Positions 7,694-10,395 of a stretch of 22,319 bases of DNA are shown here, one piece after another. The position numbers and the translations under genes are program-made. The DNA is from a virus. The notes below the pieces were generated by a model, which was not told the origin of the DNA, did no database searches, and worked only from the letters and a program-made list of their open reading frames with translations. The stretch is from IMG/VR virus record IMGVR_UViG_3300045988_130630. The stretch is one strand, 5' to 3'. How positions within the stretch are numbered: position 1 is the stretch's first letter; the number at the start of each line of letters is the position of its first letter.

Positions 7694-9001
7694 TTAATTA
7701 GTTATTAATTTCCATGTTGTGCTATTTATTTTTACATATACTCTACTGTCAGGATGAGCCATATAATAAGTTAAATATACTGAACTATTTGCTGTACTAT
7801 CACGATAAGGCTTAACATATATATAATAAGTAGTTCCAGCAGTAACTTTATAACAAATACCAAAATTAGCTCCAGTACCGCCATATTTTTTTGCATAATC
7901 ATCATCACTAACTAAAATATTAGAAGAAGGCTACCCACTACTATTAAGAGAAGTAATATTTGATGTTAAATATCCATAAGTATCTATTGAAGAATTAGAA
8001 TAAACAATAAAGTCTCCTGAAATAGTAGGAGTAAAAGAAAAATAACGACAAGTGCTTGGAGATAAAGTCCAAGAAGAAGTATTCTGTTTATTGTAAGTAG
8101 GAGCAGATATTGACACAGTAGAATAAGCCCAATTCGTTATAGACTAAACGGTAATTCTTATATAGCCATTTCCACTATGCCCAGTTTCAGTGGTTCCTGT
8201 TGGAGAAGTAAATGAAGTATTACCAGCTATTGTGGAAGCAGAAGTAAGTTTTGAAGTATTTATATATCCAGAGCCCCCGCCTCCTCCACAAATATTACTA
8301 TCTGAAGTACCAGTGGAACAATATCCTCCATAATATCCTCCTCCGCCACCTCCTTGGTCTACATGAGTCGAAGCACTAGCCCCTTGTCCAAAAGAGTATC
8401 CACTTGATTGAGTTCCTCCTGAGACGGAATATCCTCCTCCGTTCGCCGCAGATCCTCCAGAATTTCCTCCTCCATATCCGCCATCACTAGATTGAGTTGA
8501 GAAAGAACCATACCAACCTCCCGCTCCTCCTCCTCCACCAGCTATGAGTAAAATTGAAGCCGTAGAAGAAGACAAAGTATTTAATAATCCTGAAGTAGTC
8601 GCAATATGTGTTGCTCCTCCTCCTCCGCCTGAAGTTTGAGTATTAGAATTATTACTTCCATTTTTACTGCCAGCTCCTCCTCCATTATATCCTCCATTTG
8701 GACCGGATGAAGTAGAACCAGTCGCAGTTGACCCTTGTCCTCCAGAATAAAGATATAAAACTGTATCTGAAGTAGGAGAAAAAACTCCATATGAATAACC
8801 TCCTTTTCCTCCAAATAATTGAGAATTATTAGAAGGAGAAGCAGTTCCATTTCCTCCCTAAGCACCCCAACATTCTAATTTATAAGTACCTTTTGGAAGA
8901 GTAATAGATTTATAAGTTCCGCTATAAGGACAATTTAATATATCTCCTGTTTTTAAAGAAGAAGAGGAAGGAATTGAAGAAGTTAAGTCATAGGTTGCCA
9001 T
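7694..9001 (-). CDS. Glycine-rich tail-fibre-like structural protein (paralog A, 435 codons) with 3 in-frame TAG codons (8858, 8144, 7931)
   Basis: RBS AAGGAGG + ATG at 9001; one frame runs open from 9001 to TAA at 7694 except for the TAGs; Gly-rich collagen-like runs and a beta-rich C-terminus; ORF-track pieces 8144..8575 and 7931..8116 are fragments of this frame. Confidence 0.75.
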
Positions 9002-10395
9002 GTGGTTATTCCTCCTTTCCAAGTTGTATTATCTATTTTTGTATATATTGCTTTAATGGGGGCATAAGTATTAGAATCAATTTTCACATTCAATGGCGAT
9101 AATACAGTAATACGAATATATCCATGCATTCCTCCGGGGTTGTTTTTAGTATATCCTGTTGTGGTAGAAGCATTTGTTAAATAATAACTATTGTTTAATA
9201 AACAGCCAAAAGGATAATTAGAAACAGTAGATGAAGTATATACATATCCAGAACCACCACCATTATAAGTTCTATAATCAGCAGAGCTATCACTAACATT
9301 AGTAGAAGCACCGCCACCGTACCAACCGCCGCCACCACCACCGGGACCATAATTATAATTGGTAGATCCACTAGCATCAGCACCTTGACCAAAAGATCCA
9401 TTTGTTCCTGCTTTAGTCTATGTAGCCTTATATTCTTCAACCGCAGAGTTACCCGTCAATCCGCCACCCTATTTAATAGAAGAGTTGCTTTCTCCTGCTC
9501 CTCCTCCGCCACCACCCGCAACAATTACACGAGCATAAAGAGAATCTTGACCTATGCGGATATCGGAAGCTCCTCCACCCCCTCCTCCTGAAGTATAAGC
9601 AGAAGTATACCATCTAATTCTGGAGCTACCTCCTCCATTAAATCCACCACTAACTACTTTTCCTTTTTCACTATCACTTGAATAACTACCCTAACCCCCG
9701 GTATATAAATAAATAGAAGTAGGAGTTGATAAAGAAAGAATTCCTATAGAATATCCTCCTGTTCCACCCCAATAACTATTTTTTGAACTCGCAGGAGTAT
9801 AAGTAGTATTACTTTCCTATTTCTAAATCTAAAAATAAACTTCTTCATTATCCACGGAATTTGAGCCATCTTTAGTATAAGTCATTACAATAGTAGATCC
9901 TGATGATAAAGAATAAGTGCCAGTAGTAGTAAGAGACCTTGATCCAGAAACCGCATTTAAAACTGTATTTCCTCCAACTGTTAAAGTAACTTTATCATAG
10001 CTTGCTTCAGTTTTATAATAATATGAAAATTTATAAGTTCCTCCAGAAGTACAAGTTAATGTAGTTGTGGCGGTACTTGAATCTATTCCTCCATTTGTGG
10101 CTATCCAGTCATTTCCGTCTTGACGAAAATAATAATTTGAATCATTAACAGTAAAATAACTAGTCGCATTATGAGTTCCTATATATATCCATGAAGTTGT
10201 TGTTGATGAAGTTAAAGAACCAGAATAACCAATTCCGCCATAAGCTCCCCAACATTCTAATTGATAATTTCCTGCTGGAAGTTTTACTGGATTTACAGCT
10301 CCCGAATAGCTGCTATTAATAATATCTCCTGGAACAAATTTAGTGGAAGAATAATCTGTTATAGAAGTTCCTGAAGGACTATAAGTATTTGGCAT
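8983..10395 (-). CDS. Glycine-rich tail-fibre-like structural protein (paralog B, 470 codons) with 6 in-frame TAG codons (9829, 9823, 9817, 9691, 9469, 9418)
   Basis: RBS AAGGAGG + ATG at 10395; one frame runs open to TAA at 8983; shares the motifs YxLECWGA, GGGGGGWYGG and GYIRITV with paralog A. Confidence 0.7.

What the first reader, a model, noticed from the sequence alone, without database searches (positions are those of the whole stretch)
8735..10242. Paralog alignment constrains the amino acid inserted at TAG: Gln in one place, Tyr in another
Two alignable positions between paralogs A and B place TAG opposite a sense codon.

- A reads LECWGA-TAG-GG at 8858-8860. B reads NYQLECWGA-Y-GG, with TAT at 10240-10242.
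- B reads YLYTGG-TAG-GS at 9691-9693. A reads YLYSGG-Q-GS, with CAA at 8735-8737.

TAG to Gln is the established phage reassignment (code 15). TAG is one substitution from both CAG and TAT/TAC. The two-site evidence is split and does not settle the identity.
Basis: seen in the sequence. Interest (0 to 1): 0.7.

Follow-up and report, generated by a model that had tools for sequence, protein, structure and literature searches.

The report
Amber codon TAG read as glutamine
In this gut phage the stop codon TAG inside late genes stands for glutamine, as in other recoded phages; the tyrosine seen opposite one TAG is a change peculiar to one gene copy, so the finding is real but ordinary.

Summary
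Paralog A (7694-9001, minus strand) has TAG at 8858-8860, opposite TAT (10240-10242) in paralog B (8983-10395). B has TAG at 9691-9693, opposite CAA (8735-8737) in A. Both proteins are ALK/LTK-type glycine-rich domain proteins, and the alignment is real.

The split Gln/Tyr evidence can be resolved, and the answer is glutamine (code 15).
- **WGAxGG site:** it carries true CAA/CAG in 132 of 146 homologous motifs. TAT occurs only in the B lineage.
- **Other conserved sites:** three further TAGs sit on near-invariant Gln, namely GGTQT in B, CHSQT in the HNH gene and YIGQS in the GIY-YIG gene.
- **Close orthologs:** TAG exchanges mainly with CAA/CAG. It shares 12% of Gln columns but 0.8% of Tyr columns.
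- **Profile score:** over 13 sites Gln scores +14 bits and Tyr -9 bits.
- **Codon usage:** late genes have almost lost CAG, and TAG fills that gap.
- **Usage of TAG:** it never ends a gene here, and early genes contain none.

The suppressor tRNA(CUA) lies 4.45 kb beyond the window's left end, in a 99.8-100% identical contig. It is a short-arm (class I) tRNA with G73 and an unpaired 1:72, so it is not Tyr-like, and a theta (HDV-like) ribozyme follows it. All of this matches published recoded gut phages.

The parts
7694..9001 (-). Paralog A: 435-aa glycine-rich-domain (PF12810) protein with a C-terminal extension. It is intact only if TAG is read as sense.
8858..8860 (-). TAG, A codon 48, in WGAxGG. 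This position is near-invariant Gln in the family.
   Evidence: The motif has CAA 92, CAG 40, TAG 7, GAA 4, TAT 3. Standard-code units give Q 80, E 4. The L005 ortholog has CAA.
8735..8737 (-). CAA (Gln), A codon 89, aligned with TAG 9691-9693 of B.
8144..8146 (-). TAG, A codon 286 (RITVxS), at the domain boundary. The site is variable in homologs (I/Y/L) and uninformative.
7931..7933 (-). TAG, A codon 357, in a variable Ser-rich stretch. The L001 ortholog has TCG.
8983..10395 (-). Paralog B: 470-aa glycine-rich-domain protein with an insertion of about 150 aa directly after the WGAYGG strand. It holds six in-frame TAGs.
10240..10242 (-). TAT (Tyr), B codon 52, at the family's Gln position. 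It is fixed in all six B orthologs.
9817..9831 (-). Cluster of three TAGs (TAG ATT TAG AAA TAG; B codons 189, 191, 193) at the end of the inserted domain. Orthologs replace single ones with CAA.
9691..9693 (-). TAG, B codon 235 (YLYTGGxGS). The position is variable in the family with Gln as the plurality. Orthologs have CAA or CAT.
9469..9471 (-). TAG, B codon 309 (IKxGGG). Most standard-code homologs and A have Tyr, but B orthologs L001 and L002 have CAA.
9418..9420 (-). TAG, B codon 326 (KATxTKAG), on the near-invariant Gln of the GGTQT motif.
   Evidence: Standard-code units give Q 79, A 3. The nearest standard-code relative reads ATQTKAGTNGSFG.
10412..10966 (-). Gene C: 184 aa, function unknown, with four in-frame TAGs (10685-87, 10631-33, 10565-67, 10424-26). 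One is CAA in ortholog L001.
6941..7426 (-). HNH endonuclease gene with three in-frame TAGs (7277-79, 7055-57, 6989-91).
6989..6991 (-). TAG in CPNCHSxT of the HNH gene. Homologs have Gln.
   Evidence: Q in 103 of 117 database homologs. It is CAA in a standard-code phage where TAG ends genes.
3339..4118 (-). GIY-YIG endonuclease gene with four in-frame TAGs (4062-64, 3855-57, 3807-09, 3546-48).
4062..4064 (-). TAG in the YIGxS motif of the GIY-YIG gene. Homologs have Gln.
   Evidence: CAA/CAG in 22 of 30 TAG-free homologous ORFs.
11085..22279 (-). Block of 18 genes without any in-frame TAG (3503 codons). Every stop is TAA or TGA. This is the standard-code, presumably early, module.
394..7615 (-). 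tRNA array (16 predicted) interspersed with homing endonuclease genes. It holds no CUA anticodon. The array continues beyond the left end, where the suppressor lies.

Best explanation
TAG is a glutamine codon (genetic code 15) in the late and accessory genes of this roughly 190-kb gut phage.

A phage-encoded tRNA with anticodon CUA reads it. This tRNA lies just outside the window, and a theta (HDV-like) ribozyme directly after it releases its 3' end. The host most likely charges it with glutamine, either directly by GlnRS or through Glu-tRNA amidation.

Early genes contain no TAG and can be translated at once. The glycine-rich (probably tail-fibre-type) proteins A and B, gene C and two homing endonucleases need the suppressor.

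The Tyr opposite A's TAG is a substitution fixed in paralog B at a position that is Gln in the rest of the family. Because TAG lies one base from both CAG and TAT, a sense TAG is a natural stepping stone between Gln and Tyr. This explains why paralog comparison shows both residues.

Shown: TAG is sense, TAG aligns with Gln, the tRNA(CUA) and ribozyme exist, and TAG is confined to one gene set. Inferred: which enzyme charges the tRNA, and the timing role.
For: 1. ORF structure. Reading TAG as sense restores long ORFs. A grows from 238 to 435 aa and B from 189 to 470 aa. TAG ends none of 28 genes and is absent from 3503 early codons, against 20 TAGs in 1509 late and endonuclease codons.

2. Conserved sites with true Gln codons in standard-code homologs.
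- WGAQGG: Q 80 of 84.
- GGTQT: Q 79 of 84 (both, using domain units from phages with no in-frame TAG).
- YIGQS: 22 of 30.
- CHSQT: 103 of 117, and CAA in a phage that uses TAG as a stop.
- A Prevotella MAG also reads WGAQGG with CAA.

3. Profile log-odds over 13 TAG sites: Q +14.1 bits, next best I -1.4, Y -8.7, W -16.8.

4. Ortholog codon exchange in 18 close loci. Of 79 TAG columns, the partners are CAA 20, CAG 8, TAT/TAC 6. TAG shares 12.2% of Gln columns, 0.8% of Tyr columns and 0.6% of Ser columns. CAA is two bases from TAG, so it is best explained by synonymous drift TAG-CAG-CAA.

5. Codon usage. CAA:CAG is 32:43 in early genes but 22:1 in late and endonuclease genes (Fisher p 2.6e-6). 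Counting TAG with CAG gives 22:21, p 0.44.

6. Suppressor tRNA. The tRNA(CUA) is at L045:16241-16313 in a contig 99.8-100% identical to window 1-11836. It scores 49.8 bits on the Rfam tRNA model. It is a 73-nt class I tRNA with G73, G2-C71, G10 and U35. It is one of the only three tRNAs among 71 in the clade whose 1:72 is unpaired. Published identity sets give G73, a weak U1-A72, G2-C71, G10 and U35 for Gln, and A73 for Tyr (PMC9976931).

7. Ribozyme. The tRNA is followed by GGTGCTA|A|AAACAAA|ACC|T|CC|TCGC|GGT|TAGCACT|GG|GTAATG|CTAA|TTTGTTT. This fits the published theta ribozyme segmentation (PMC10879173).
Against: - Two paralog or family sites put Tyr opposite TAG: A48 against B52, and B309, where 58 of 84 standard-code units have Tyr.
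- A few ortholog columns show TAG against TAT/TAC, for example L002 at the LYTGG Tyr of B and L005 at DDDYAKK of A.
- The suppressor body is no closer to tRNA-Gln than to other tRNAs. Its best overall match is phage tRNA-Trp at 0.66-0.70 identity, which barely exceeds other isotypes.
- Positions 3-70 and 38 do not match the E. coli Gln identity set.
- The suppressor was found in a near-identical contig, not in the window itself.
- No protein-level data exist for this phage.
- The host, and therefore the charging enzyme, is unknown. Strong Shine-Dalgarno use (24 of 28 genes) hints at a host outside Bacteroidota, where GlnRS may be absent.
Confidence: 0.92

Rival explanations
1. TAG encodes tyrosine (code-29-like). 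The Gln seen opposite some TAGs would then be ordinary substitutions.
For: - B has TAT where A has TAG.
- At B309 most standard-code homologs have Tyr.
- Six ortholog columns pair TAG with TAT/TAC.
- TAG is one base from TAT/TAC.
Against: - Tyr scores -8.7 bits against +14.1 for Gln over 13 sites.
- Four near-invariant Gln positions carry TAG.
- TAG shares 0.8% of Tyr columns against 12% of Gln columns.
- Tyr codons are not depleted in late genes, whereas CAG is.
- The suppressor has G73 and, in the window's strain, no long variable arm. The phage's own tRNA-Tyr(GUA) is a 90-nt class II tRNA with A73.
Confidence: 0.02
2. TAG encodes tryptophan, because the suppressor tRNAs look like phage tRNA-Trp(CCA) with a C35-to-U change.
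For: - The best overall matches of two suppressor alleles are tRNA-Trp, at 0.66-0.70 identity.
- They share the anticodon loop CU-NNN-AA and G73.
- 19% of ribozyme-linked suppressor tRNAs were scored as Trp isotype in PMC10879173.
Against: - Trp scores -16.8 bits.
- TAG pairs with TGG in only 1 of 134 Trp columns.
- No conserved Trp site carries TAG.
- C35 is a major TrpRS determinant, and the E. coli tRNA-Trp amber suppressor is charged with Gln (PMC9976931).
- The margin of sequence similarity over other isotypes is tiny.
Confidence: 0.02
3. The meaning of TAG differs between strains, or is ambiguous. Three unrelated tRNA(CUA) bodies occupy the same locus, and the commonest has a long extra arm like Ser, Leu or Tyr tRNAs.
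For: - The three alleles are 56-62% identical to each other.
- The 90-nt allele carries a 21-nt variable region.
- L002, which has the long-arm allele, has TAG at a mostly conserved Tyr of B.
Against: - Within long-arm-allele genomes alone, TAG pairs with CAA/CAG in 11 columns (9.5% of Gln columns), Tyr in 2 (0.5%) and Ser in 1 (0.2%).
- These genomes keep TAG at WGAxGG and KATxTK.
- All three alleles share G73, G2-C71 and an unpaired 1:72. This is the kind of acceptor-end change that converted an amber tRNA-Ser to Gln identity (PMC9976931).
Confidence: 0.04
4. The TAGs are genuine stops, and A, B, C and the endonucleases are pseudogenes or sets of short genes.
For: Standard-code ORF calling fragments them.
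Against: - Frames continue across TAG with family-wide homology on both sides.
- 52 of 88 TAG columns are conserved as TAG among orthologs.
- A dedicated tRNA(CUA) is present.
- TAG never ends any other gene.
Confidence: 0.01

Closest known systems
Genetic code 15 (TAG to Gln) in uncultivated gut phages: crAss-like, Lak and the 'gemstone' clades (Borges et al., bioRxiv 10.1101/2021.08.26.457843; Peters et al. 2022, PMC9523058)
   Same: - In-frame TAG is confined to structural, late and accessory genes, while other modules use the standard code.
- The phage encodes a tRNA(CUA).
- TAG aligns with Gln.
- The genome size of about 190 kb falls within the Jade/Sapphire range (201-210 kb) given in the preprint.
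- Public gene calls already translate these genes with Q.
   Different: - Clade membership was not tested, because no terminase tree was built.
- No proteomic proof exists for this phage.
- No release factor or aaRS gene was seen in the roughly 30 kb examined.
Theta (minimal HDV-like) ribozymes adjacent to suppressor tRNAs (Kienbeck et al. 2024, PMC10879173)
   Same: - The ribozyme starts one base after the discriminator of the tRNA(CUA).
- The tRNA lacks an encoded CCA.
- The motif segments P1/P2/P3/P1.1/J4-2 (CTAA) are all present.
- A near-relative of the long-arm tRNA is in their supplementary table.
   Different: - The Rfam hit to HDV-F-prausnitzii is below the gathering score (26 against 44 bits).
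- Self-cleavage was not tested.
- The unit lies outside the window.
E. coli su+7 (tRNA-Trp with CUA anticodon) and acceptor-stem mutants of amber tRNA-Ser and tRNA-Tyr that are charged with Gln
   Same: A CUA anticodon (U35), G73 and a weakened or unpaired 1:72 pair direct charging with Gln, whatever the tRNA body (PMC9976931).
   Different: Those are laboratory mutants in E. coli. Here there are three natural alleles in a phage whose host is unknown, and charging was not measured.
ALK/LTK glycine-rich domain family (Pfam PF12810)
   Same: A and B both match above threshold (124 and 122 bits against a cut-off of 24.5). They carry the WGAQGG and GGTQT motifs.
   Different: - B's domain is split by an insertion of about 150 aa.
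- B has Tyr (or G-Y) in the WGAQGG motif.
- A has an extra C-terminal domain.

Membership tests
Code-15-type phage recoding (TAG to Gln) | In-frame TAG codons inside ORFs that are long and conserved only when TAG is read as sense | tested here: met
Code-15-type phage recoding (TAG to Gln) | TAG is not used as a terminator | tested here: met
   0 of 28 gene ends. All are TAA or TGA.
Code-15-type phage recoding (TAG to Gln) | TAG aligns with Gln at conserved positions of standard-code homologs | tested here: met
   Four near-invariant Gln sites. Log-odds Q +14.1 bits.
Code-15-type phage recoding (TAG to Gln) | TAG exchanges synonymously with CAA/CAG among close relatives | tested here: met
   28 of 52 partner codons are CAA/CAG. 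12% of Gln columns are shared with TAG.
Code-15-type phage recoding (TAG to Gln) | Phage-encoded suppressor tRNA with anticodon CUA | tested here: met
   Not in the window. Present at L045:16241-16313 in a 99.8-100% identical contig, 4.45 kb past the left end.
Code-15-type phage recoding (TAG to Gln) | The suppressor tRNA is charged with glutamine | not testable with these tools
   Identity elements partly match: G73, G2-C71, G10, U35 and an unpaired 1:72. Positions 3-70 and 38 do not. The body-similarity test was inconclusive.
Code-15-type phage recoding (TAG to Gln) | Gln found at TAG positions in the protein (mass spectrometry) | not testable with these tools
   Done only for crAss-like phages in PMC9523058.
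TAG to Tyr reassignment (code 29-like) | TAG aligns with conserved Tyr, and TAG exchanges with TAT/TAC among relatives | tested here: not met
   Tyr -8.7 bits. 0.8% of Tyr columns are shared with TAG.
TAG to Tyr reassignment (code 29-like) | Tyr-type suppressor tRNA (bacterial type: A73, long variable arm) | tested here: not met
   G73 in all three alleles. The window strain's allele is 73 nt and class I. Identity set from PMC9976931.
Theta (HDV-like) ribozyme linked to tRNA | Minimal HDV-like motif with catalytic C in J4/2, and a cleavage site within 1 nt of the tRNA 3' end | tested here: met
   Motif parse against the published segmentation. Rfam RF02682 gives 26.1 bits, E 0.017, below the gathering score.
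Theta (HDV-like) ribozyme linked to tRNA | Self-cleavage activity | not testable with these tools
   Needs in vitro transcription.
ALK_LTK_GRD (PF12810) | Match above the Pfam gathering score | tested here: met
   A 124.4 bits, B 122.5 bits, cut-off 24.5.

The most novel reading that the evidence does not exclude
Near-identical phages carry three unrelated tRNA(CUA) bodies, only 56-62% identical to each other, swapped in like cassettes in front of one invariant theta ribozyme. One of them has a long extra arm.

All three share the same unusual acceptor end: an unpaired 1:72 (C/U, U/C or U/U), G73 and G2-C71. This end is found in none of the other 68 tRNAs of the clade. The pattern would indicate convergent selection for capture by the host's glutamine-charging route, independent of the tRNA body.

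A corollary follows. Sense TAG opens a one-step mutational bridge between Gln and Tyr (CAG-TAG-TAT). That bridge could have let paralog B replace an otherwise invariant Gln by Tyr, and could have let a family Tyr become Gln at B309.
Probability: 0.35. Interest if true: 0.45.

Novelty: already known. Interest (0 to 1): 0.25.

Why it matters
The practical consequence is that these genes must be translated with table 15. Under the standard code, A, B, C and both homing endonucleases fall into fragments. The case also shows that comparing paralogs is an unreliable way to assign a recoded codon. TAG sits one base from both Gln and Tyr codons, so paralogs can show either residue. Ortholog codon exchange and invariant family positions give a clear answer where paralogs do not. 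The biology itself is established: TAG to Gln in late genes, a suppressor tRNA, and a theta ribozyme. The only part that might repay further work is the shared acceptor-end design of the three swapped suppressor tRNAs.

Tried and rejected
- **Megablast of window 7600-22319 against GenBank phages:** no match.
- **blastn of the suppressor tRNA plus ribozyme against the same collection:** only T-arm fragments of unrelated tRNAs.
- **Database protein homologs of A:** they carry Q at the TAG positions. I did not count these as evidence, because the gene caller probably used code 15, which would make the argument circular. I used DNA-level codons and TAG-free homologs instead.
- **Nearest-isotype assignment of the suppressor tRNAs:** Trp came first by a margin too small to use.
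- **Testing whether the unpaired 1:72 is general among published ribozyme-linked suppressors:** the stored supplementary table is cut and holds almost no Sup rows.
- **Host inference:** the bacterial-genome scan gave one 40%-identical hit in a Prevotella MAG. Strong Shine-Dalgarno use points elsewhere. The host is left open.
- **Cluster look-up for NCBI names:** no accession or name was returned.
- **Pyrrolysine:** ARAGORN's 'tRNA-Pyl' label follows from the CUA anticodon alone. The tRNAs have an ordinary D-loop GG and a TTCGA T-loop.
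Full report
**Observation.**
All genes in the window lie on the minus strand. Under the standard code the region 6.9-11 kb breaks into short ORFs. With TAG read as sense it holds five intact genes:

| Gene | Coordinates | Length | In-frame TAGs |
|---|---|---|---|
| Paralog A | 7694-9001 | 435 aa | 3 |
| Paralog B | 8983-10395 | 470 aa | 6 |
| Gene C | 10412-10966 | 184 aa | 4 |
| HNH endonuclease | 6941-7426 | 161 aa | 3 |
| GIY-YIG endonuclease | 3339-4118 | 259 aa | 4 |

The four codons named in the finding are exactly where stated. 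They are TAG 8858-8860 (A48), TAT 10240-10242 (B52), TAG 9691-9693 (B235) and CAA 8735-8737 (A89).

A and B both match Pfam PF12810 (ALK/LTK glycine-rich domain) at E about 1e-35. Their N-terminal strands align at 54% identity, E 1e-10. B carries an insertion of about 150 residues directly after that strand.

B309 (IKxGGG) lies opposite Tyr in A, and B326 (KATxTK) lies opposite Gln in A. Paralog comparison alone thus gives two Gln and two Tyr.

**Source of the window.**
Window 1-11790 is 100% identical to a 25-kb ENA contig (L048). It is 99.8-100% identical to a 193-kb contig (L045). Orthologs of A occur on many contigs of 185-198 kb. The source is therefore a gut phage of about 190 kb.

Public gene calls already give full-length 435-aa proteins with Q at the TAG sites. 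This probably reflects code-15 gene calling, so I did not use those Q residues as evidence.

**Evidence from conserved positions.**
I collected 44 related loci from IMG/VR. Loci L006-L042 encode 800-900-aa glycine-rich proteins with no in-frame TAG at all, so they use the standard code.

- Across all loci the motif [W]GAxGG carries CAA 92 times, CAG 40, TAG 7, GAA 4 and TAT 3.
- TAT occurs only in the B lineage, where it is fixed in all six orthologs.
- In 84 domain units from the standard-code phages the columns opposite the TAGs read as follows:

| TAG site | Residues in standard-code units |
|---|---|
| A48 | Q 80, E 4 |
| B326 | Q 79, A 3 |
| B235 | Q 30, S 21, K 14, V 10, A 8 |
| B309 | Y 58, A 21 |
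| A286 | I 23, Y 19 |

- The nearest standard-code relatives of B read ATQTKAGTNGSFG at B326 and TKYGGG at B309.
- A Prevotella MAG also has WGAQGG with CAA.
- In the HNH gene the TAG in CPNCHSxT faces Q in 103 of 117 database homologs. One such homolog (70% identical) sits in a phage where TAG ends many genes, including that one, and its codon is CAA.
- In the GIY-YIG gene the TAG in YIGxS faces CAA/CAG in 22 of 30 TAG-free homologous ORFs.

A weighted profile log-odds over 13 sites gives Q +14.1 bits, I -1.4, K -2.5, Y -8.7 and W -16.8.

**Evidence from close orthologs.**
In 18 loci of the same phage clade I found 29 gene families and 79 columns with TAG. The partner codons are CAA 20, CAG 8, TAT/TAC 6, CAT 2 and scattered singletons. 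TAG shares 12.2% of all Gln-containing columns, against 0.8% for Tyr, 0.6% for Ser and 0.7% for Trp (earlier versions).

B235 is CAA in L001 and CAT in L002 and L004. B309 is CAA in L001 and L002. CAA differs from TAG at two positions, so its dominance is what synonymous drift TAG-CAG-CAA predicts. A Tyr codon would not produce this pattern.

**Evidence from codon usage.**
Early genes use CAA:CAG at 32:43. Late genes plus endonucleases use 22:1 and have 20 TAGs. The loss of CAG is significant (p 2.6e-6). Counting TAG with CAG restores the early ratio (22:21, p 0.44). Tyr codons are not depleted.

TAG ends none of 28 genes and is absent from 3503 early codons.

**The decoding apparatus.**
The window's 16 tRNAs include no CUA anticodon. 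The array continues past the left end. In L045 a tRNA(CUA) lies at 16241-16313, 4.45 kb beyond window position 1, and the phage's 90-nt tRNA-Tyr(GUA) lies 0.6 kb further on.

The suppressor scores 49.8 bits on the Rfam tRNA model. It folds as a 73-nt class I cloverleaf. It has G73, G2-C71, G10, U35 and an unpaired C1/U72, and it encodes no CCA.

Relatives carry two other alleles at the same locus. One is a different 73-nt tRNA (U1/C72). The other, the commonest, is a 90-nt tRNA with a 21-nt variable region (U1/U72). The three are only 56-62% identical to each other. Among 71 distinct tRNAs of the clade, only these three have an unpaired 1:72.

Published identity sets give G73, U1-A72, G2-C71, G3-C70, G10 and U34/U35/G36 for bacterial Gln, and A73 for Tyr. 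They also record that amber tRNA-Trp, and acceptor-stem mutants of amber tRNA-Ser, are charged with Gln (PMC9976931). A genuine phage tRNA-Gln(UUG) in a standard-code phage likewise has A1/C72 unpaired and G73.

Overall body similarity is uninformative, with Trp best by a small margin. Restricting the ortholog test to genomes with the long-arm allele still gives Gln: 11 Gln, 2 Tyr and 1 Ser partner columns.

All alleles are followed, one base after G73, by the identical sequence GGTGCTA|A|AAACAAA|ACC|T|CC|TCGC|GGT|TAGCACT|GG|GTAATG|CTAA|TTTGTTT. This sequence matches Rfam HDV-F-prausnitzii weakly (26 bits, E 0.017). It fits the segment scheme of the published theta ribozymes. About 20% of ribozyme-linked tRNAs in that study are tRNA-Sup, and 96% of phages carrying a Sup-linked ribozyme are predicted to use code 15 (PMC10879173).

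**Interpretation.**
TAG is glutamine. The Tyr in B is a lineage-specific replacement at a family-wide Gln position. B309 is the reverse case, a family Tyr that is Gln (TAG/CAA) in B.

Either change can pass through TAG in single steps, which a standard-code genome could not do. At any one site the two readings are equally parsimonious.

Confinement of TAG to one gene set matches the published model, in which recoded late genes wait for the suppressor (bioRxiv 10.1101/2021.08.26.457843). The timing role is inferred here and not shown.

The charging enzyme is unknown. A weak first pair with G73 suits GlnRS, and a non-G1-C72 first pair also suits the amidotransferase route. The host is unresolved: there is one weak Prevotella hit, yet 24 of 28 genes have a Shine-Dalgarno core.

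**Verdict.**
This is a correct observation of an already known phenomenon. The open question in the finding is answered in favour of the established code 15. Interest is low, apart from the shared acceptor-end design of the swapped suppressor tRNAs.

Noticed in passing
window 2242-2292 (-): Candidate minimal twister ribozyme of type P1. Rfam RF03160 gives 41.1 bits (gathering score 67.2), E 4.7e-8 on 221 nt. The conserved UAA, GC, CC, GGUxCCAAGxCC and GAGG are present, but the P3 stem is replaced by a short loop. It lies between tRNA-Phe and the small ORF 2001-2237.
   Followed up: partly
window 7545-7615 (-): tRNA-like gene scoring 46 bits on the Rfam tRNA model, with a 6-nt anticodon loop CUUCAA (would-be anticodon UCA). 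Relatives read AUUUAA or CUUUAA (UUA), so strains differ exactly in the 'anticodon'. In relatives a tRNA-Trp(CCA) follows it. In the window the HNH gene sits there instead. Function is unknown, and TGA and TAA are the stops in use here.
   Followed up: partly
window 9817-9831 (-): Three TAG codons within five codons (TAG ATT TAG AAA TAG) at the end of paralog B's inserted domain. If the suppressor is limiting, this would be a strong block to translation. Orthologs replace single ones with CAA.
   Followed up: partly
L045:16241-16368, L046:15247-15374, L047:9954-10098 (outside the window): Three unrelated tRNA(CUA) bodies occupy one locus in near-identical phages. Each has an unpaired 1:72 and G73, lacks CCA, and precedes an identical theta ribozyme. 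The 90-nt long-arm allele is the commonest, found in 8 of 11 loci.
   Followed up: partly
window 651-10966 versus 11085-22279: CAG is almost absent from TAG-containing genes (1 of 23 standard Gln codons), yet it is the majority Gln codon in early genes (43 of 75). TAG appears to have replaced CAG specifically.
   Followed up: yes
window 394-7615 (-): The tRNA array is interrupted by GIY-YIG and HNH homing endonuclease genes whose presence and position differ between strains. Several tRNAs lack an encoded CCA. Two ARAGORN calls (Thr 5808-5882, Ala 5888-5966) were not recovered by the Rfam tRNA model.
   Followed up: no
L045:13397-21140 and L046:698-3141 (outside the window): Neighbouring genes include a NAGPA+SPOR protein, a 678-aa Flg_new repeat protein and Mtd_N proteins. 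The Mtd_N proteins may be targets of a diversity-generating retroelement. One strain also has a YcaO gene next to the tRNA array.
   Followed up: no
window, upstream of 24 of 28 genes: A strong Shine-Dalgarno core (GGAG/GAGG/AGGA) lies 5-15 nt before the start codons. This argues for a host that uses Shine-Dalgarno sequences, although the only bacterial-genome hit of the glycine-rich protein was a Prevotella MAG.
   Followed up: partly
L082:1613-1700, L069:1809-1884, L074:1846-1922, L044:11745-11821: Unrelated phage loci fetched in passing also carry tRNA(CUA) genes with other designs. One is an 88-nt class II tRNA with A73. Two have G1.U72, G73 and an encoded CCA. One is tRNA-Gln-like with U1-A72.
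   Followed up: no
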